The notes beneath the pieces were generated by a model. That model was not told the DNA's origin and ran no database searches. It saw only the letters and a list, made by a program, of their open reading frames with translations. From assembly GCF_054482525.1 (NCBI RefSeq), contig NZ_CM137006.1: a DNA stretch of 64,000 nt; one strand, 5' to 3'. Both the position numbers and the translations under genes were made by a program. How positions within the stretch are numbered: the first letter of the stretch is position 1; each line of letters begins with the position of its first letter. Below, in pieces: positions 42,859 to 64,000 of this stretch.

Positions 42859-44121
42859 CTATTTTAATGGATTGTTAATCTTTGCATATTCAAACGGGCT
42901 GATACATTGTTCTCTGTTCGCACCCAGAAAATCTGCCCACCACTGTAGCATCAGTCGACGTTCTTCCAGATGTTCTGCTTTATGGATATATGCAGCACGT
43001 ACACCATTACGCTCCTGATGGCTCATCTGACGTTCCACAGCATCGCGGGACCACAAACCTGATTCAATCAATGCACTGCACGCCATCGCCCGGAATCCAT
43101 GACCACAGACTTCCTGGGTTGTGTCATATCCCATCACCCTCAGGGCTTTATTTACAGTATTTTCACTGATCGGTTTACGCGGGTCATGTGCTCCCGTAAA
43201 GATCAGACCATTTTCACCAGCCCATGTCTGTAGTTCTGTCAGTATGGCTACAGCCTGTTTGCTGAGTGGCACAAGATGTGGTGTTCGCATCTTGGAGCCC
43301 CGGTGTGAGTATTTTACGCCTGGCAGAGGTTCGCGTTCGGCTGGAATAGTCCACATGGCATTGTCAATATCAATTTCAGACCAGCGGGAATATCTGAGTT
43401 CACTGGAACGAATAAAAACCAGTAAATTCAGCATAACTGCCAGTCGGGTGACAGGCTGACCTTTATAACCGTCAATACGCGACAGAAGTTCAGGCAGGCG
43501 TGAAAGATCCAGAGCAGGGCGATGCTGGCGTTTTACCGTGGTCAATGCACCAGCCATATCCAGAGCCGGGTTATATCTGATGATGCCAGACTGTACGGCA
43601 TAACGCATTACAGCAGATATTCTTTGCTGCAGACGACTGGCGATTTCATAAATTTGTTTTGCTTCTGCAGCACGAACAGGGATAAGCAGGTCCGGGGTAT
43701 TGAGTGTTGTGATATCCCGGTTGCCGATAAAGGGGAAAACGTGTGTCTCGAGGCTTTTGATTACTTTATCGCTGTGTGATTGTGCCCATTGTTTATTACT
43801 GGCATGCCAGCGTCGTGCAATATGTTCAAAAGAGAGTTGTAAATCAGGGACTACTTTTTTAGCTCTTTTTTGTTCGCAAGGGTCAATCCCCTCTGAAATC
43901 AGTTTTCGGGCCTCATCCCGTTTTGTACGAGCTTCGGAGAGAGAAACTTCTGGATATACACCAAGTGCCAGAGTCTTCTCCTTACCCAGAATACGATAAC
44001 GGAGACGCCAGTAACGGGAACCATTAGGATGAACCAGCAGGAACATGCCAGCCCCGTCAGTGAGTTTATAAGCCTTGTCAGTGTGCTTTGCAGCCCGGAT
44101 TTTTGCGTCAGTCAGTGCCAT
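42859..44121 (-). CDS. int: P4/CP4-57-type tyrosine integrase
   Basis: 420 aa; MALTDAKIRAAKHTDKAYKLTDGAGMFLLVHPNGSRYWRLRYR N-terminus; C-terminal catalytic region with R...HxxR...Y. Confidence 0.9.
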   Translation of the reverse strand: MALTDAKIRAAKHTDKAYKLTDGAGMFLLVHPNGSRYWRLRYRILGKEKTLALGVYPEVSLSEARTKRDEARKLISEGIDPCEQKRAKKVVPDLQLSFEHIARRWHASNKQWAQSHSDKVIKSLETHVFPFIGNRDITTLNTPDLLIPVRAAEAKQIYEIASRLQQRISAVMRYAVQSGIIRYNPALDMAGALTTVKRQHRPALDLSRLPELLSRIDGYKGQPVTRLAVMLNLLVFIRSSELRYSRWSEIDIDNAMWTIPAEREPLPGVKYSHRGSKMRTPHLVPLSKQAVAILTELQTWAGENGLIFTGAHDPRKPISENTVNKALRVMGYDTTQEVCGHGFRAMACSALIESGLWSRDAVERQMSHQERNGVRAAYIHKAEHLEERRLMLQWWADFLGANREQCISPFEYAKINNPLK

Positions 44122-59116: not shown

Positions 59117-60668
59117 GAGGTTGGTGATAAGGCGTTTTGCATATCCTGCACCTATGCAAATGTTCACCAATTATGGGGGGGGAATGAGAATTTCTCTGAA
59201 AAAACCGCTACGGTAGCAACAGTAGCAGCACATGCACCACATCTGTGATTTAATTTTGTTTTCATAATGACCTGCTGTCAGAGCTGGTTGAATACAGGAG
59301 TGTGCGCACTGGTGGAAGCATGGCTTTCGTTTTTTATTGATCGAAAGTGAATCGAAAGATTATTTTTAACATAGATTAAAGCTAATCATTAACCATATTG
59401 TGTGAGTTTTCATATATAACTTCGTTTGATTTTCGTCGTGATGAGTGTAGGTGTATATGATAATGTCGGTCTCTGCCTGAATAACGAATGGTTATCACTG
59501 TTACTGAAAAGAGATGCTGTTCAAGTTTGCATTTCAATAGGAGAGTGAAGAAAAATGATTTGATATTTTTTCTGTAAGATAATGGTTTGTCATGTTCGTA
59601 TTCAGAACGGATGATTTCTTATTTTTACTCATCAAACATGGATAATTTTAATTTAGGTTTATTACTATAATTAGTATCTACCCCTTTATTTATCATCCAT
59701 CTCTGCCCTTCATTTTCCCTCTCTGTCTTTACACATTCCATTACTCTTATTCTCATCCAGTTATATTCACTCCCTTCCTTGTCTAATCTTCATTGTCACC
59801 ATTATCATGGTATCCACCTTCTCCATTCCTCAATCATAACTACTGTAACTCATATGATACTCAGATAAGTTATTCTCTACTACGCTATTGCTGATATCCA
59901 TCTGTTCCTGTTTTCAGTAAAATAATAATTTATTTTAATTTTATCCATCATGAGCTGTATTTGCTTAACAATGATTGTTTATCTGATATGTTTTAACCAT
60001 TCTGGTAAATATCAATACTTCTGTCATCACTGATTAACTGAATGCTTACTCTTTAATAAGGTATCCATTATTCTGTAACGATTAGCCGAGCAGGGTAAAT
60101 AACAGAATTAATAGAGTGAATTTCTGATTGTGTTTGTTCGTTCCTGATTATCTTGTATTTTAAATAAAATGAAAATTATCCATCCATGGTATGTTTCATT
60201 CTGGTACCGTGTACCCGTTAACGTTCATATCTTGAACATGAGTTGTTTTTAACAGATAAAATGAGTGCGTGTAAGTTTATTGGGTTACAGGTATCGTGTT
60301 GGCCTTGTACACGGTTTTTTAGAACCATTGAGAGCAAGTTTGTAATTTATGATGGTGATTAGTCGTAATATGTTTCTTGAACTTCTGATCGTGGGTTTTT
60401 ATCGCATATTTTGCAGTATTTCGTGATGTTTATTGATTCTGTATTTTATTCACTCCTCGTTTATCTCATCTCTTTAGCTAATACCATCAGATAATCCATT
60501 TATTTCTGCACAACGCTACGTGTCGTTAATAACCGACGTATCCATTCTGTTACAGCATGCCTGATAAATACCGTCTGTAAGTTATTACCGTTTTAGATCT
60601 GATTATGAGCGAAAGCATTAATTCGTTTACAGCACTTAAAACGTCATTAACTTTCAGGAGTCATCAGC

Positions 60669-61235
60669 ATGCCTAAATCTTACACACCAAACTGGTTTTT
60701 TACCGCTTTACTTGACAATCACATCAATCAGTTGGTCGCACGCTATTCCCGTCTGCGGGCCTTACGCATGGATTTCTTCTACAGGAAAGATACGCCTGAT
60801 TTCTTACAACCTGATCATCGCTGGCTTGAATTGCAGTTGCGTATGCTGCTGGAGCAGGTGGAACAATTTGAAAATATCGTTGGTTTCTTCTGGGTGATTG
60901 AATGGACGGCTGATCATGGTTTTCATGCGCATGCGGTTTTCTGGCTCGATCGTCAGAGGGTTAAAAAAATATATCCCTTTGCGGAGCGGATTACGGAATG
61001 CTGGCAGTCTATTACGCATAACAGCGGTTCGGCACACCGCTGTACATATCAGCCGCATTATACATACAACATCAACATTCCTGTGCGCCACAACGATCCT
61101 GAAAGCATCGATAATATTCGCGGTGCCCTGCATTATCTGGCGAAAGAAGAGCAAAAAGACGGGCTGTGTGCCTACGGCTGCAGTGAAGTTCCTGAGCGTC
61201 CTGCTGCAGGGCGTCCTCGTAAGCCTCACTTCTGA
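60669..61235 (+). CDS. Gp2-like protein (YfjJ/YagK family)
   Basis: 188 aa; LRMDFFYRKD...HGFHAHAVFWLDR...LHYLAKEEQKDG. Confidence 0.75.
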   Translation: MPKSYTPNWFFTALLDNHINQLVARYSRLRALRMDFFYRKDTPDFLQPDHRWLELQLRMLLEQVEQFENIVGFFWVIEWTADHGFHAHAVFWLDRQRVKKIYPFAERITECWQSITHNSGSAHRCTYQPHYTYNINIPVRHNDPESIDNIRGALHYLAKEEQKDGLCAYGCSEVPERPAAGRPRKPHF

Positions 61236-61294
61236 AGCTTAAGGCCTGAGCCTCCGCTCCTGGAAACACTCCGTCGGTAAAAATCTACCGCCCT

Positions 61295-61327
61295 GATTAA
61301 TGATGTGAACTGAAGTCAACGGAGATC
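61295..61327 (+). promoter_or_regulatory. Conserved element GATTAATGATGTGAA...CAACGGAGATC (copy 2)
   Basis: Matches 55507-55544 with a 3-bp insertion and a 7-bp deletion; lies between two Gp2-like genes. Confidence 0.4.
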
Positions 61328-61518
61328 ATTCACCTTAAACCCACCTCAGGAATTTTACACCTGTCTGGTCTCCTGACTGTCCTGGCATACGACATCTGCC
61401 ATCCCCGGTTCCACGGTTATCACATCAACAATCTCAGTACACGACGCCTTCAGTTTCACCATACGCTCGTCTTTCGCTGGCGGGGATGCGTCGTGCGTTT
61501 CCATATGGAGCATATCTT

Positions 61519-62091
61519 ATGAATGGTATCCCTCATTTCGACTATAGCCTGGCGCCCTTCTGGCCGTCTTATCAGAACAAAATCATCGGTGTTCTCAACC
61601 GTGCGCTGCGTGAACAGTCCTGCTCCCGGGTACGGCGGATCCTGCTTCGTCTGCCGTGGGAACATGACAACGCCTTCAGTGACAGAAAAATCTGGTTCGG
61701 TATGGATTTTATCGAAACCGTCAGTGCGCTGATGAATGCAACACCCGGACGTGACCTCTGCTGGCTCCTGACCCGTCATCCTGAAAAACCGGAATACCAC
61801 GTGGTGTTATGCGTCAGACAGGAGTATTTCGATGGCCCTGAACTGGACCGGCTGATTCTGGATGCCTGGAGCAACGTACTGGGCTTCGCGTCACCGGGTG
61901 AAGCGGCACCGTACCAGAAGCAGATAACACGGGATGTGGTGCTGGACAGTCGTTCACCGGACTGCGAAGACATCCTCAAAGAGTTGATATGGGCGTTCAG
62001 TGATTTCGCCCGCGATCGTCGTGGTGTGCGCGATCCGGAAGCCCGTTACCTCGCCGGTAATCCCTGGTATCCCGTAGCAGGCCAGCTCTGA
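61519..62091 (+). CDS. Gp2-like protein, divergent (putative YfjJ/YagK family)
   Basis: Start ATG 61519 behind GGAG; RVRRILLRLPW...EYHVVLCVRQEY resembles the family core. Confidence 0.5.
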   Translation: MNGIPHFDYSLAPFWPSYQNKIIGVLNRALREQSCSRVRRILLRLPWEHDNAFSDRKIWFGMDFIETVSALMNATPGRDLCWLLTRHPEKPEYHVVLCVRQEYFDGPELDRLILDAWSNVLGFASPGEAAPYQKQITRDVVLDSRSPDCEDILKELIWAFSDFARDRRGVRDPEARYLAGNPWYPVAGQL

Positions 62092-62159
62092 AAACACCGT
62101 TCAGCAGATTAATCCGCATTTGCACAACCTTCATAAATCTCATAAAGGACATTCTGACC

Positions 62160-62396
62160 ATGTTGACCTCAATGACAGGCCACGACAGCGTGTTGCTGCG
62201 TGCTGACGATCCCCTGATCGACATGAACTACATCACCAGTTTCACCGGTATGACCGACAAATGGTTTTACAAGCTGATCAGTGAAGGCCATTTCCCGAAA
62301 CCCATCAAGCTGGGCCGCAGCAGCCGCTGGTACAAAAGTGAAGTGGAGCAGTGGATGCAGCAGCGAATTGAGGAATCACGAGGAGCAGCAGCATGA
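62160..62396 (+). CDS. alpA: AlpA-family transcriptional regulator
   Basis: ITSFTGMTDKWFYKLISEGHFPKPIKLGRSSRWYKSEVEQW; true start may be the internal MNYITSF Met. Confidence 0.75.
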   Translation: MLTSMTGHDSVLLRADDPLIDMNYITSFTGMTDKWFYKLISEGHFPKPIKLGRSSRWYKSEVEQWMQQRIEESRGAAA

Positions 62397-62506
62397 AACG
62401 TGTTGTGATGCCGGTACGCTGGCAATGTGCAAAATGCCGGCGCTGGTATTGCGGAAATCAGCCCTGTCCCTGGTGCTGGCGACATTACCGTTCATTTTCC
62501 TGCTGA
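62393..62506 (+). CDS. Small Cys-rich zinc-ribbon-like ORF (37 aa) coupled to alpA
   Basis: ATG overlaps the alpA stop (ATGA) with AGGAG 7 nt upstream; MKRVVMPVRWQCAKCRRWYCGNQPCPWCWRHYRSFSC has two CxxC pairs. Too short for the ORF track. Confidence 0.35.
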   Translation: MKRVVMPVRWQCAKCRRWYCGNQPCPWCWRHYRSFSC

Positions 62507-62664
62507 CCCTCTCCGGTCAGCCAGCAGGTTGTAGCTCTTTCCTGACTGATTCGTCATTCCATTCACATTGTTTATAACTGGCATTACACCGGTGTTGATG
62601 CGCACCTTCCCGTGTGTCTGCACCGGCTTAACAAAATTCAACAGGGTTTGAAAAGGAACATTTC

Positions 62665-63213
62665 GTGCAAATAACCGAAGCCTTAATTTCAGAGCCGGGA
62701 GACATCCGGCGTTTTGTTCAGCAGGCGGTGGACCACTGGCCGCGTCTGCTGGCAGTCCACTTCACGCTCCATTCGGCTGAAGGAAACATCAACGGGCAAC
62801 AGATTCAGGCATTCTGTACTTCCTTTTACCGACAGGTGCACGAACGTATTACTGAGCGTAATCACACTGCCTGTCCATCCTCGCCGGTGGTATTACGCTG
62901 GTTGCGGGAACAACATGGAGGAGCAACAATACGATGCCTGTTGCTGCTCAGCCAGACGAGCATTTGCCATCCGCGGGCCAGTGCCACGGTTGATGAAGAA
63001 TGTTCGCAACGGGTGGATTTATTGCAACAGACCTGGAAGGTGATAAGCGCTGGCGGACAATGCCAGGTTGAAAGGTGTTTTCGGGTTGCCCGGGGTGATA
63101 CATCTGGCCAGTATGTTGCGTTAAAAACAGTCGCATTGTCTCTGGGGTTACCGGTTGTGATCGCCATTACCCATCGTCCGGTACAGCGCTGTACATTGAT
63201 TACAGCTCAGTGA
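62665..63213 (+). CDS. Hypothetical protein, possibly divergent Gp2-like
   Basis: 182 aa, GTG start; weak pattern similarity (RLLAVHFTLHS...RCLLLLSQ). Confidence 0.45.
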   Translation: MQITEALISEPGDIRRFVQQAVDHWPRLLAVHFTLHSAEGNINGQQIQAFCTSFYRQVHERITERNHTACPSSPVVLRWLREQHGGATIRCLLLLSQTSICHPRASATVDEECSQRVDLLQQTWKVISAGGQCQVERCFRVARGDTSGQYVALKTVALSLGLPVVIAITHRPVQRCTLITAQ

Positions 63214-63231
63214 ATCAGCGCAGTTGTGCAG

Positions 63232-63534
63232 TCAACGAGGTTTTCTGGCTTTTCGTCGGTCATTCAGCATCATTAAACGGGTCTCTGCCTCTTTCTGTTC
63301 CTGTGGTGTCACTTCCCCGCACGGCTGACCGTTCAGGTTGTAACGGGCGCCACCTGCTATTAACGCACGGTAATAGCGCGGAGACTGCACATAAGACGCC
63401 ACTGCTGCATGTAATGTACCAGCGCCAAACGCCAGTTCTCGGATGGCGATATCCTGTATCAGGTCGTCAGGTATCCCCACTTTAAGTGGTTTTGTTTTTT
63501 TCCCGGTTGAATGACTCAGGCCAGAGTTCCACAA
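63232..63534 (-). CDS. Hypothetical protein
   Basis: 100-aa ORF; unknown function. Confidence 0.35.
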   Translation of the reverse strand: MWNSGLSHSTGKKTKPLKVGIPDDLIQDIAIRELAFGAGTLHAAVASYVQSPRYYRALIAGGARYNLNGQPCGEVTPQEQKEAETRLMMLNDRRKARKPR

Positions 63535-63548
63535 GACGAATAATGCGC

Positions 63549-63743
63549 TTACGGTTTTTGCTCTGGCGTTTTGTCATGTCGCCACGGTGTTTTATCAGCA
63601 GGTTTCTGTTTATCGTTCAACTGTGGTATCTGGTCACCGGCCTTCATTTTGTATGCTGTGTCCGTTTTATCCTGCAGCGGCGTTGCCGGTGATTTACTGA
63701 AAATACCCTGCGGTTTACGGTTAATGGTCAGAGTTACCATCAA
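63549..63743 (-). CDS. Hypothetical small protein
   Basis: 64-aa ORF 14 nt upstream of 63232-63534; Lys/Pro/Asp-rich; could be spurious. Confidence 0.25.
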   Translation of the reverse strand: MMVTLTINRKPQGIFSKSPATPLQDKTDTAYKMKAGDQIPQLNDKQKPADKTPWRHDKTPEQKP

Positions 63744-64000
63744 TTTTGTTACCTCGCGCTGTCAATGGAAGTAGTACCTCATCCGATATCTGAAAATGTT
63801 TTCCGGTGGATGTTACAGCGAATTTCATGTAAGACATGTTGTTGTCGGTATTGTTCAGTACTGTGCGTTGTGAGCGTATTCGTTATCAGACAGAGGGGCA
63901 GGGAACAAACGTCAGAGGTTAAGGATATCCGGGAACAAATGGCGTAAACGGACATCTCAGTGCCTGAGAAACAGTACAGGTCAGGCCATCATGGCCTGCA

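What the first reader, a model, noticed from the sequence alone, without database searches (positions are those of the whole stretch)
62381..62506. 37-codon zinc-ribbon-like ORF translationally coupled to alpA
Its ATG overlaps the alpA stop (ATGA) and has an AGGAG site 7 nt upstream. The product MKRVVMPVRWQCAKCRRWYCGNQPCPWCWRHYRSFSC has two CxxC pairs. It is too short for standard ORF calling, so it is likely missing from annotations. A small Zn-ribbon partner of an AlpA-type excision regulator would be a plausible recombination-directionality or regulatory cofactor.
Basis: partly seen in the sequence, partly recalled or inferred. Interest (0 to 1): 0.45.

Follow-up and report, generated by a model that had tools for sequence, protein, structure and literature searches.

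The report
Unannotated zinc-ribbon mini-gene after alpA
A 37-codon gene right after an AlpA-type regulator gene in an E. coli genomic island very probably encodes a real, conserved zinc-binding mini-protein of unknown function; annotation pipelines either skip it or call an overlapping wrong-frame ORF instead.

Summary
ORF 62393-62506 (+) exists, its ATG overlaps the TGA of an AlpA-family gene (ATGA), AGGAG lies 7 nt upstream, and the product has two CxxC pairs.

The same Cys-rich frame, with motif RW-C-x2-C-R-x-YCG-x2-PCP-x-C, lies directly downstream of alpA homologues in at least 12 enterobacterial genera and on Klebsiella IncHI1B/FIB plasmids. Synonymous sites are saturated while the protein is kept: pN/pS is 0.33 in this frame and 1.2-1.3 in the other two.

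It is a divergent stand-alone member of Pfam Zn_ribbon_11 (PF11682, function unknown). Homologues pass the Pfam threshold; the window's copy does not.

The exact 37-aa protein is absent from a 15-billion-protein collection. The overlapping hydrophobic-frame ORFs are deposited as "hypothetical protein". That frame is not conserved across genera or across E. coli indel variants.

In E. coli the gene is often damaged (a 26-bp deletion in 16 of 66 copies), and selection within E. coli cannot be demonstrated.

Function is inferred only. It is most likely a basic, nucleic-acid-binding accessory protein co-expressed with AlpA. No AlpA interaction signal was obtained.

Verdict: a real gene, a new member of a known uncharacterised family, of moderate interest.

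The parts
62160..62396 (+). AlpA-family winged-helix/HTH gene (78 aa). The small ORF is coupled to its stop codon.
   Evidence: Pfam Phage_AlpA 2e-10, 40.8 bits vs cut-off 21. PHROG 'excisionase and transcriptional regulator' 7e-10. PDB relatives are an AlpA-family protein (8c3t), TorI and RdfS. PGAP calls it 'helix-turn-helix transcriptional regulator'. 25% identity to K-12 AlpA.
62381..62385 (+). Shine-Dalgarno-like AGGAG, 7 nt upstream of the small ORF's ATG, inside the alpA 3' end.
   Evidence: Read directly from the sequence. Purine-rich SD-like runs sit at a similar distance in homologues of other genera.
62393..62506 (+). Small ORF, 37 codons plus stop: a stand-alone Zn_ribbon_11-like Cys4 mini-protein. 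ATG overlaps the alpA TGA (ATGA).
   Evidence: The frame is conserved in at least 12 genera. pN/pS is 0.33 vs 1.29 and 1.17 in the other frames.
62411..62482 (+). Conserved core, codons 7-30 (P7...R30). Predicted Zn ligands are C12 (62426-8), C15 (62435-7), C25 (62465-7) and C28 (62474-6). C20 (62450-2) is a subfamily-specific conserved Cys.
   Evidence: In the 14-sequence alignment P7, C12, C15, R17, Y19, C20, G21, P24, C25, P26 and C28 are invariant. In the 23-sequence alignment Y19, C20, G21, P24, C25, P26 and C28 stay invariant and R9, W10, C12, C15 and R17 are at least 90% conserved. Many E. coli variants end at R30. hhalign to DUF7828-Zn_ribbon_11 domains aligns the two CxxC pairs but not C20. 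The AlphaFold2 model has a hairpin at 9-11/18-20 and a helix at 26-35.
62483..62503 (+). Variable C-terminal tail (HYRSFSC), not conserved. Indels here scramble it among E. coli copies.
62407..62432 (+). Net 26-bp segment absent from a common E. coli variant (e.g. strain 55989). Its loss removes the first CxxC and fuses the MKRV start to the hydrophobic frame.
   Evidence: Alignment. Variants. Junction searches.
62425..62577 (+). Overlapping alternative-frame ORF (MCKMPALVLRK...HSHCL, 50 aa). It is deposited as 'hypothetical protein' in sister genomes and is judged here to be a wrong-frame call.
   Evidence: Not conserved across genera or across E. coli indel variants. No SD-like run in the 15 nt upstream.
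62665..63213 (+). Next gene in the same orientation, 182 aa, a distant Gp2/YagK-YfjJ-type protein. It holds the same position as the Gp2-type gene of the Klebsiella plasmid module.
   Evidence: PGAP 'hypothetical protein'. 26% identity, E 2e-11 to the 'inovirus-type Gp2 protein' of pKpCol17ndm.

Best explanation
ORF 62393-62506 is a genuine protein-coding gene that annotation missed.

What it encodes: a 37-aa, very basic, Trp/Arg-rich mini-protein made of a single Cys4 zinc-ribbon or treble-clef-like module. The predicted ligands are C12/C15 and C25/C28. It is a divergent stand-alone member of Pfam Zn_ribbon_11.

How it is expressed: it is transcribed together with the AlpA-type winged-helix gene. 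It is translated either by termination-reinitiation at the ATGA overlap or from its own AGGAG site.

Shown: conservation of the coding frame, the motif, the gene order and the family link.

Inferred:
- It binds one Zn ion.
- It acts as a nucleic-acid-binding accessory factor of the island's conserved Gp2-like/AlpA/Zn-ribbon regulatory module. It would modulate AlpA-dependent transcription, and hence possibly excision or replication, rather than acting alone.

The overlapping hydrophobic-frame 'hypothetical proteins' annotated in sister E. coli genomes are wrong-frame calls. In the 26-bp-deletion lineage they are the read-out of a frameshifted pseudogene.
For: (1) Frame conservation. Directly downstream of alpA homologues (overlapping the stop, or 5-20 nt after it), the same Cys-rich peptide is encoded in Kosakonia, Citrobacter, Superficieibacter, Siccibacter, Tenebrionibacter, Hafnia, Trabulsiella, Rosenbergiella, E. 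albertii, C. koseri and others.

(2) Codon signature. Across 20 unique 24-codon cores, pS is 0.70 and pN 0.23 (ratio 0.33) in this frame, against 1.29 and 1.17 in the shifted frames. All 24 third positions vary, against 15 and 13 at positions 1 and 2. From the same loci, the Zn core gives 0.315 and the AlpA core 0.146.

(3) Family link. Small homologues score 27-44.5 bits on Pfam Zn_ribbon_11 (GA 24), with a continuous gradient down to the window's copy. hhalign to C-terminal Zn_ribbon_11 domains of DUF7828 proteins gives probability 73.6%, E 2.9e-5.

(4) Linkage. 8 of 8 contexts found via the Zn protein itself have a Phage_AlpA gene immediately upstream. One metagenome contig carries an AlpA-Zn fusion (P0026).

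(5) Translation signals. AGGAG at -7 and the ATGA overlap. No terminator-like site lies between the genes.

(6) Fold. AlphaFold2 gives pLDDT 72 overall and 78-84 in the core, with a hairpin plus a helix.

(7) The rival frame. E. coli indel variants keep codons 1-30 of this frame but scramble the hydrophobic frame's product.
Against: - Within the E. coli-type sequences alone, substitution counts do not favour this frame (10 S / 20 N vs 11 S / 18 N).
- 16 of 66 examined copies carry the 26-bp deletion and 9 more are otherwise disrupted, so selection in E. coli may be relaxed.
- The window's own protein gives no Pfam hit.
- 9 of 23 AlpA homologues with the same signature lack the gene.
- Copies in L010 and L018 lack a canonical start and L012 is degenerate.
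- The AlpA-linker-Zn AlphaFold model shows no docking (pTM 0.42, no pLDDT gain).
- There is no expression, zinc-binding or functional data, and nothing in the searched literature.
- The core sequences were picked by the Cys motif, which inflates apparent conservation of the Cys codons.
Confidence: 0.65

Rival explanations
1. Decaying relic. The Zn-ribbon gene family is real elsewhere, but in E. coli-type islands, including this degraded IS-ridden island, the copy is no longer under selection. It is an intact-looking remnant with no current function.
For: - Within-E. coli S/N counts of 10/20 do not differ from the other frames.
- The 26-bp deletion type makes up 16 of 66 copies and is found at >=95% junction identity in about 700 RefSeq records.
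- Nonsense, start-loss and frameshift variants exist.
- The island in the window has pseudogenes next door (frameshifted ProQ/FinO, IS1, IS110) and only an integrase remnant.
- The C-terminal tail is scrambled among copies.
Against: - 41 of 66 copies keep codons 1-30 intact despite frequent indels immediately downstream.
- Amino-acid changes in E. coli fall mostly at positions that also vary across genera. Only R17H and P24L touch positions that are invariant in the 14-sequence alignment.
- The SD and the ATGA overlap are retained.
Confidence: 0.2
2. The overlapping hydrophobic-frame ORF (62425-62577, or its MKRVAM-fused 52-aa form) is the real gene, a small membrane protein as annotated by PGAP in sister genomes. 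On this view the Cys-rich frame is incidental.
For: - PGAP annotates WP_000831911 (52 aa), WP_152950218 (50 aa), WP_024186938 (78 aa) and WP_001342704 (41 aa) in this frame.
- The clusters have 49 and 65 members, and one member was seen on at least 1000 contigs.
- The frame is open in both long and short variants.
- In the short variant it inherits the SD and ATG.
Against: - In the cross-genus alignment both shifted frames, one of which is the hydrophobic frame, give pN/pS above 1 (1.29 and 1.17). One of them also acquires stops in 7 of 20 genera-level sequences.
- In other genera this frame gives unrelated peptides, e.g. MENTPVLDVSPLPATVLW.
- Among E. coli variants its product changes entirely after indels: TLPFIFLLTLSGQ vs LTTPAHLSAGTLW vs ILPADILRSAN, with variable length.
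- No SD-like run lies upstream of ATG 62425.
- There is no family hit.
Confidence: 0.07
3. Neither frame is translated. The region is a non-coding 3' UTR or intergenic spacer between alpA and the next gene, and the ORF is a chance feature.
For: Short ORFs are abundant: 55 of at least 25 aa in 4 kb. There is no direct expression evidence.
Against: Three-base periodicity of substitution and 11 invariant residues persist across saturated synonymous divergence. Related family members pass the Pfam threshold. There is no Rfam match.
Confidence: 0.03

Closest known systems
Pfam PF11682 Zn_ribbon_11 ('Probable zinc-ribbon', formerly a DUF), including the C-terminal domain of DUF7828 proteins that NCBI names 'putative zinc ribbon protein'
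   Same: It shares the W-x-C-x2-C...Y-x-G...C-x2-C motif and the same enterobacterial islands and plasmids, often the same operon. Small AlpA-adjacent homologues pass the Pfam threshold. hhalign gives E 2.9e-5.
   Different: The window's protein scores below any reportable Pfam hit. It is a stand-alone 37-aa domain without DUF7828. It carries an extra invariant Cys (YCG) and a PCP-x-C second knuckle. The family itself has no known function.
AlpA / Vis / TorI / RdfS-type winged-helix excisionase-regulators (Pfam PF05930 Phage_AlpA). This applies to the upstream partner gene.
   Same: The upstream gene is a family member by HMM and by PDB relatives. From established knowledge, K-12 AlpA activates intA and CP4-57 excision, and AlpA-type proteins also act as transcription activators or antiterminators.
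   Different: No member described in the searched literature has a zinc-ribbon partner. K-12 CP4-57 alpA has no such ORF downstream. Here alpA is flanked by Gp2/YagK-like genes rather than by an integrase.
Small Zn-finger transcription factors of P2/P4-type elements (Ogr/Delta, PF04606)
   Same: Both are small Cys4 zinc proteins encoded by P4-related mobile elements, and both are co-resident with an AlpA/Vis-type gene. This resemblance comes from general knowledge.
   Different: There is no sequence relationship: the best Pfam Ogr_Delta E-value is 0.26, for one homologue only. The Cys spacing differs (CxxC-x9-CxxC, against about 22 residues between pairs in Ogr) and it is half the size.
Retroviral-type zinc knuckle (C-x2-C-x4-H-x4-C)
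   Same: C12-x2-C15-x4-C20-x4-C25 reproduces the knuckle spacing. The peptide is basic and aromatic, like nucleic-acid-binding knuckles.
   Different: There is no zf-CCHC Pfam hit. In related Zn_ribbon_11 domains the position of C20 is Y, H, Q or A, so it is unlikely to be a ligand.

Membership tests
Pfam PF11682 Zn_ribbon_11 | HMM score at or above the gathering threshold (24 bits) | tested here: not met
   The window's 37-aa protein gives no hit at E<=10. Small homologues score 44.5, 34.7, 32.5, 30.9, 30.0, 27.3 and 27.1 bits (pass), then 23.3, 22.0, 20.5, 20.4, 14.9 and 10.1 bits (fail). The link is therefore transitive, through homologues.
Pfam PF11682 Zn_ribbon_11 | Motif W-x-C-x2-C ... 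Y-x-G ... C-x2-C (two CxxC knuckles 9 residues apart) | tested here: met
   The window has RWQCAKCRRWYCGNQPCPWC. DUF7828-type domains have DWHCSGCNNDYYGELYCLTC.
Pfam PF11682 Zn_ribbon_11 | Profile-level homology to bona fide domain members | tested here: inconclusive
   hhalign of A4 vs A5 gives probability 73.6%, E 2.9e-5 over 31 columns. This is supportive, but the profiles are short and shallow (4 sequences in A5).
Pfam PF11682 Zn_ribbon_11 | Binds zinc through four Cys | not testable with these tools
Pfam PF05930 Phage_AlpA (upstream gene 62160-62396) | HMM score above the gathering threshold | tested here: met
   40.8 bits vs 21.
Recombination directionality factor (RDF) system / RDF cofactor | Encoded next to, and acting with, a cognate integrase; changes excision frequency | tested here: not met
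   No integrase is adjacent. The only integrase remnant is a frameshifted fragment next to cadC, about 18 kb away. In related intact loci the pair sits among Gp2/YagK-like and GTPase genes. The effect on excision is not testable here.
Translationally coupled gene pair | Overlapping stop/start or a very short gap, with an SD inside the upstream gene, conserved in relatives | tested here: met
   ATGA overlap with AGGAG at -7. The ATGA overlap is kept in the E. coli-type copies whose junction is undisturbed; a few copies have a TAA stop with no overlapping ATG, or no in-frame alpA stop. In other genera there is a TGATG overlap or gaps of 5-20 nt. Actual coupling is not testable.
Ogr/Delta zinc finger (PF04606) | HMM match | tested here: not met
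   Best E-value is 0.26, for one homologue, and there is none for the window's protein.
Retroviral-type zinc knuckle (zf-CCHC) | HMM match, and the third ligand conserved across relatives | tested here: not met
   No Pfam hit. The C20 position is not Cys or His in related Zn_ribbon_11 domains.

The most novel reading that the evidence does not exclude
The mini zinc ribbon is an obligate partner (co-activator, specificity subunit or antagonist) of a subfamily of AlpA-type winged-helix regulators. Together they would form a previously unrecognised two-protein switch that controls transcription, excision or replication of CP4-like genomic islands. These islands are present in about a third of complete E. 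coli genomes, including O157:H7 SpLE1, and in the related module on Klebsiella IncHI1B/FIB resistance plasmids.
Probability: 0.2. Interest if true: 0.55.

Novelty: new member of a known kind. Interest (0 to 1): 0.4.

Why it matters
- It adds a conserved, very widespread microprotein gene to E. coli and Klebsiella mobile-element biology. The long-type junction is found in 2013 of 5426 complete E. coli genomes, and copies occur in O157:H7 Sakai SpLE1 and on NDM-carrying Klebsiella plasmids.
- It exposes a systematic annotation error. Pipelines either skip the gene or deposit an overlapping wrong-frame "hypothetical protein"; one such sequence was seen on at least 1000 contigs.
- It gives a concrete, testable handle on two unknowns: the uncharacterised Zn_ribbon_11/DUF7828 family, and what AlpA-type regulators do in CP4-like islands that lack a neighbouring integrase.
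- The practical pay-off is modest unless a regulatory role is demonstrated.

Tried and rejected
- Family searches on the window's 37-aa protein (Pfam, NCBIfam, PHROGs) gave nothing usable. The family link came only through homologues.
- The first protein-database search failed because the query was shorter than 40 aa. It was redone with another lead sequence.
- A viral-contig DNA scan gave 0 hits, and tblastn against 50,697 phage genomes gave 0 hits. The module is not phage-borne.
- Rfam found no RNA family in 60000-64000. The promoter/terminator scan found nothing above shuffled expectation and no terminator between alpA and the ORF.
- An AlphaFold2 model of AlpA, a 20-aa Gly/Ser linker and the Zn protein, using a paired 16-sequence alignment, gave pTM 0.42 and no rise in Zn-domain pLDDT. 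It therefore gives no support for, and no strong evidence against, a direct complex.
- Within-E. coli substitution counting could not discriminate the two overlapping frames.
- K-12 CP4-57 alpA was checked for a comparable ORF and has none.
- Literature searches for the peptide, PF11682, DUF3279, DUF7828, AlpA plus zinc ribbon, and YagK/YfjJ found no description.
- Zinc-knuckle ligand set (C12, C15, C20, C25): considered and rejected, because C20 is not conserved in related domains.
- Ogr/Delta relationship: considered and rejected, because there is no significant match.

Full report
**1. Observation**

The window's 3' end carries, on the + strand, a 78-aa gene (62160-62396) followed by ORF 62393-62506. 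The ORF product is MKRVVMPVRWQCAKCRRWYCGNQPCPWCWRHYRSFSC. The ATG overlaps the upstream TGA (ATGA), and AGGAG at 62381-62385 lies 7 nt before the ATG.

The upstream gene is an AlpA-family winged-helix protein: Pfam Phage_AlpA 40.8 bits against a cut-off of 21. Its PDB relatives are an AlpA-family protein, TorI and RdfS. It is only 25% identical to K-12 AlpA.

A 37-codon ORF by itself is not remarkable, since 55 ORFs of at least 25 aa overlap these 4 kb.

**2. Context**

The window is E. coli and is 100% identical to strain ECCNB12-2, NZ_CP033635. The gene lies in a degraded CP4-like island inserted beside cadC. The island carries:
- CbtA/CbeA, RadC, an antirestriction gene, DUF932 and a YeeP-like GTPase;
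- a YfjI-family gene and several Gp2/YagK-YfjJ-like genes;
- IS elements and a frameshifted ProQ/FinO gene;
- only a fragment of an integrase.

In that RefSeq record the small ORF is not annotated.

**3.

In E. coli 55989, PGAP annotates a 52-aa "hypothetical protein" starting at the same ATGA. That genome is a net 26 bp shorter (window 62407-62432). The shared downstream DNA is therefore read in another frame, which is hydrophobic.

In the window this second frame is also open (62425-62577). In other genomes it is the frame PGAP calls, at 50, 78 or 41 aa. The real question became which frame, if either, is the gene.

**4. Cross-genus test**

I fetched loci encoding close relatives of the AlpA-like protein, one genome per species. 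Immediately downstream of alpA sits a Cys-rich ORF with the motif [IV]P-x-RW-x-C-x2-C-x-R-x-YCG-x2-PCP-x-C. Its start overlaps the alpA stop or lies 5-20 nt after it.

The genera are Kosakonia, Citrobacter, Superficieibacter, Siccibacter, Tenebrionibacter, Hafnia, Trabulsiella and Rosenbergiella, plus an unnamed Enterobacteriaceae isolate.

In the 14-sequence alignment eleven residues are invariant: P7, C12, C15, R17, Y19, C20, G21, P24, C25, P26 and C28. In the 23-sequence alignment, which includes degraded copies, Y19, C20, G21, P24, C25, P26 and C28 stay invariant, and R9, W10, C12, C15 and R17 are at least 90% conserved.

Over 20 unique 24-codon cores:

| Frame | pS | pN | pN/pS |
|---|---|---|---|
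| Cys-rich frame | 0.70 | 0.23 | 0.33 |
| +1 frame | 0.27 | 0.34 | 1.29 |
| +2 frame | 0.29 | 0.34 | 1.17 |

All 24 third positions vary, against 15 and 13 at the first and second positions. Using the same loci, the AlpA core gives pN/pS 0.146 and the Zn core 0.315, and synonymous sites are saturated in both.

Caveat: the cores were extracted with a Cys-motif pattern, which favours the Cys codons. However, the loci themselves were chosen by AlpA, not by the ORF.

Of 23 AlpA homologues carrying the subfamily signature, 14 have the motif downstream. Copies in L010 and L018 lack a canonical start, and the L012 copy is degenerate.

**5. Family**

- Profile searches found only 21 clusters among 5.8 billion proteins and 25 representatives among 1.84 billion. 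The family is narrow, or mostly uncalled.
- Several small homologues pass Pfam Zn_ribbon_11 (PF11682, "Probable zinc-ribbon", GA 24) with 27-44.5 bits. Others fall just below, and the window's copy gives no hit. The scores form a continuum, with the E. coli type at the divergent end.
- The same domain forms the C-terminus of DUF7828 proteins encoded a few genes downstream in related elements.
- Profile-profile comparison aligns the two CxxC pairs, W, Y and G (probability 73.6%, E 2.9e-5).
- The position of C20 is Y, H, Q or A in those DUF7828 domains. The likely Zn ligands are therefore C12/C15 and C25/C28, and C20 is subfamily-specific.
- AlphaFold2 with a 23-sequence alignment gives a hairpin (9-11, 18-20) and a helix (26-35), with pLDDT 72 overall and 78-84 in the core.
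- Structure and sequence searches of the PDB gave nothing significant.

**6. Linkage to alpA**

Eight contexts were found through the Zn protein itself rather than through AlpA:
- C. koseri (L046);
- E. albertii (L047);
- two copies on one metagenome contig (L048);
- three further contigs from genome or metagenome assemblies (L113, L114, L115);
- a Klebsiella IncHI1B/FIB NDM plasmid (L118).

In every one a Phage_AlpA gene lies directly upstream.

The Klebsiella plasmid shows the fuller module: Gp2-like, AlpA, an unannotated 44-aa Zn ORF, two "putative zinc ribbon proteins", Gp2-like, DUF2913. The window's next gene (62665-63213) is homologous to that plasmid's downstream Gp2-type gene (E 2e-11).

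One metagenome contig encodes an AlpA-Zn fusion (P0026). This is a weak "Rosetta stone", because it rests on a single assembly.

The module is absent from 50,697 phage genomes and from K-12 CP4-57.

**7. State of the gene in E. coli**

| Measure | Result |
|---|---|
| Long-type junction at >=80% coverage | 2013 of 5426 complete genomes |
| Deletion-type junction at >=95% identity | about 700 records |
| E. coli-type copies with MKRV...PCPWCWR intact | 41 of 66 |
| Copies of the 26-bp-deletion type | 16 of 66 |
| Copies otherwise disrupted | 9 of 66 |

Most of the 66 copies came from a metagenome scan, and many of the intact ones stop at R30.

Indels just after codon 30 scramble the tail of the Cys frame. 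They also change the entire product of the hydrophobic frame (TLPFIFLLTLSGQ vs LTTPAHLSAGTLW vs ILPADILRSAN). This argues that only codons 1-30 of the Cys frame are protected.

Simple S/N counts within E. coli do not separate the frames, however. Relaxed selection in E. coli therefore remains possible.

The exact 37-aa sequence is not in the 15-billion-protein collection. The 50-aa and 52-aa hydrophobic ORFs are, in clusters of 65 and 49 members, and one member was seen on at least 1000 contigs. O157:H7 Sakai SpLE1 also carries an intact, unannotated copy.

**8. Mechanism**

Shown:
- a selected coding frame;
- a Cys4 motif homologous to Zn_ribbon_11;
- invariant placement after alpA, with SD and an overlapping or near-overlapping start;
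- no terminator-like site between the genes.

Inferred:
- it binds one Zn ion;
- it binds nucleic acid, since it has eight Lys/Arg residues and five Trp in 37 aa, and the N-terminal tails of homologues are basic;
- it works with the AlpA-type regulator in controlling the island's Gp2-like/AlpA/Zn-ribbon module.

A direct AlpA complex is not supported by the linker-fused AlphaFold model (pTM 0.42), although that test is weak. An RDF-cofactor role in the strict sense is not supported by context, because no integrase is adjacent.

**9. Novelty and verdict**

No paper in the searchable library mentions the peptide, PF11682, DUF7828 or an AlpA zinc-ribbon partner.

The gene is best filed as a new, divergent, stand-alone member of a known but uncharacterised family, with a newly noted fixed association with a subfamily of alpA genes and a systematic wrong-frame annotation in E. 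coli.

Interest is moderate at 0.4. It would rise if the pair proves to be a two-protein regulatory switch.

Noticed in passing
window 62425-62577 (+); L002 3280-3438; L003 1807-1959; L004 1794-2030; L006 1775-1900: PGAP and other pipelines deposit 41-78-aa 'hypothetical proteins' in the hydrophobic frame that overlaps the Zn-ribbon ORF. The clusters have 49 and 65 members, and one member was seen on at least 1000 contigs. These look like systematic wrong-frame calls.
   Followed up: yes
window 62407-62432 vs L002 about 3293: A net 26-bp deletion is common in E. coli (16 of 66 sampled copies; about 700 RefSeq records at >=95% junction identity). It removes the first CxxC and fuses the MKRV start and SD to the hydrophobic frame. 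The ATGCCGG repeat at both ends suggests slippage, but the exact event (one deletion or two) is not resolved.
   Followed up: partly
proteins P0010, P0018, P0025, P0029 (E. coli): A lineage carries an in-frame deletion between two GCAGCAGC repeats. It removes the AlpA C-terminus (RWYKSEVEQWMQQRIEESRGAAA) and fuses truncated AlpA (...KLGRSS) directly to MKRVVMPVRW... of the Zn ORF.
   Followed up: no
L113 30-320 (metagenome contig Ga0487874_00184): A 96-aa protein in which a full AlpA domain runs on into the Zn ribbon (…QQRITDSGADAMQASKIPPRWICDKC…). It could be a natural fusion or an assembly/frameshift artefact. It comes from a single contig at a contig end.
   Followed up: partly
L048 4173-4307; L115 3034-3225 / L116 868-1059: In some relatives the Zn-ribbon gene is followed, with overlapping stop and start, by a very acidic 44-63-aa ORF (e.g. 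...WAEDEESEDDDVYYDSS...). It has no family match, and no counterpart was seen in the window.
   Followed up: no
L118 (Klebsiella pneumoniae pKpCol17ndm, IncFIB/IncHI1B) 1992-5390: The whole module sits on large conjugative resistance plasmids of Klebsiella, Raoultella and Citrobacter: Gp2-like, AlpA, an unannotated 44-aa Zn ORF at about 2971-3105, two DUF7828-Zn_ribbon_11 genes, Gp2-like, DUF2913. The small ORF is unannotated there too.
   Followed up: partly
L112 (E. coli O157:H7 Sakai SpLE1) about 2514-2625: SpLE1 carries an intact, unannotated copy (MKRVVMPVRWQCAKCQRWYCGTRPCPWCWRYSRSSSC) downstream of a truncated alpA-like gene annotated as 'regulatory protein' ECs_5414.
   Followed up: partly
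window 60669-61235, 61486-62091, 62665-63213 (+): There are three paralogous or related Gp2/YagK-YfjJ-like ORFs around the alpA-Zn pair. Only the first reaches the Pfam YagK_YfjJ_C threshold. The third is recognisably related to a plasmid 'inovirus-type Gp2 protein' (E 2e-11). The second (201 aa) has no family match.
   Followed up: partly
window 63232-63743 (-) and beyond; L001 7133-12601: There is a frameshifted ProQ/FinO-family pseudogene, then IS1. Just beyond the window end in the identical genome lie sul2 and aph(3'')-Ib. A resistance region therefore abuts this island.
   Followed up: no
window about 43960-44120 (record NZ_CP033635 4546248-4546407): The island is inserted beside cadC. 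Only a frameshifted integrase fragment remains at that junction and no tRNA gene lies in the window, so the island is probably immobile.
   Followed up: no
L010 2668-2979; L018 2753-2890; L012: The Kosakonia arachidis copy has ATA where relatives have the ATG. The Rosenbergiella copy has a 5' indel that puts its ATG out of frame. The Entomohabitans copy has an internal stop. This is sporadic decay of the small gene outside E. coli as well.
   Followed up: partly
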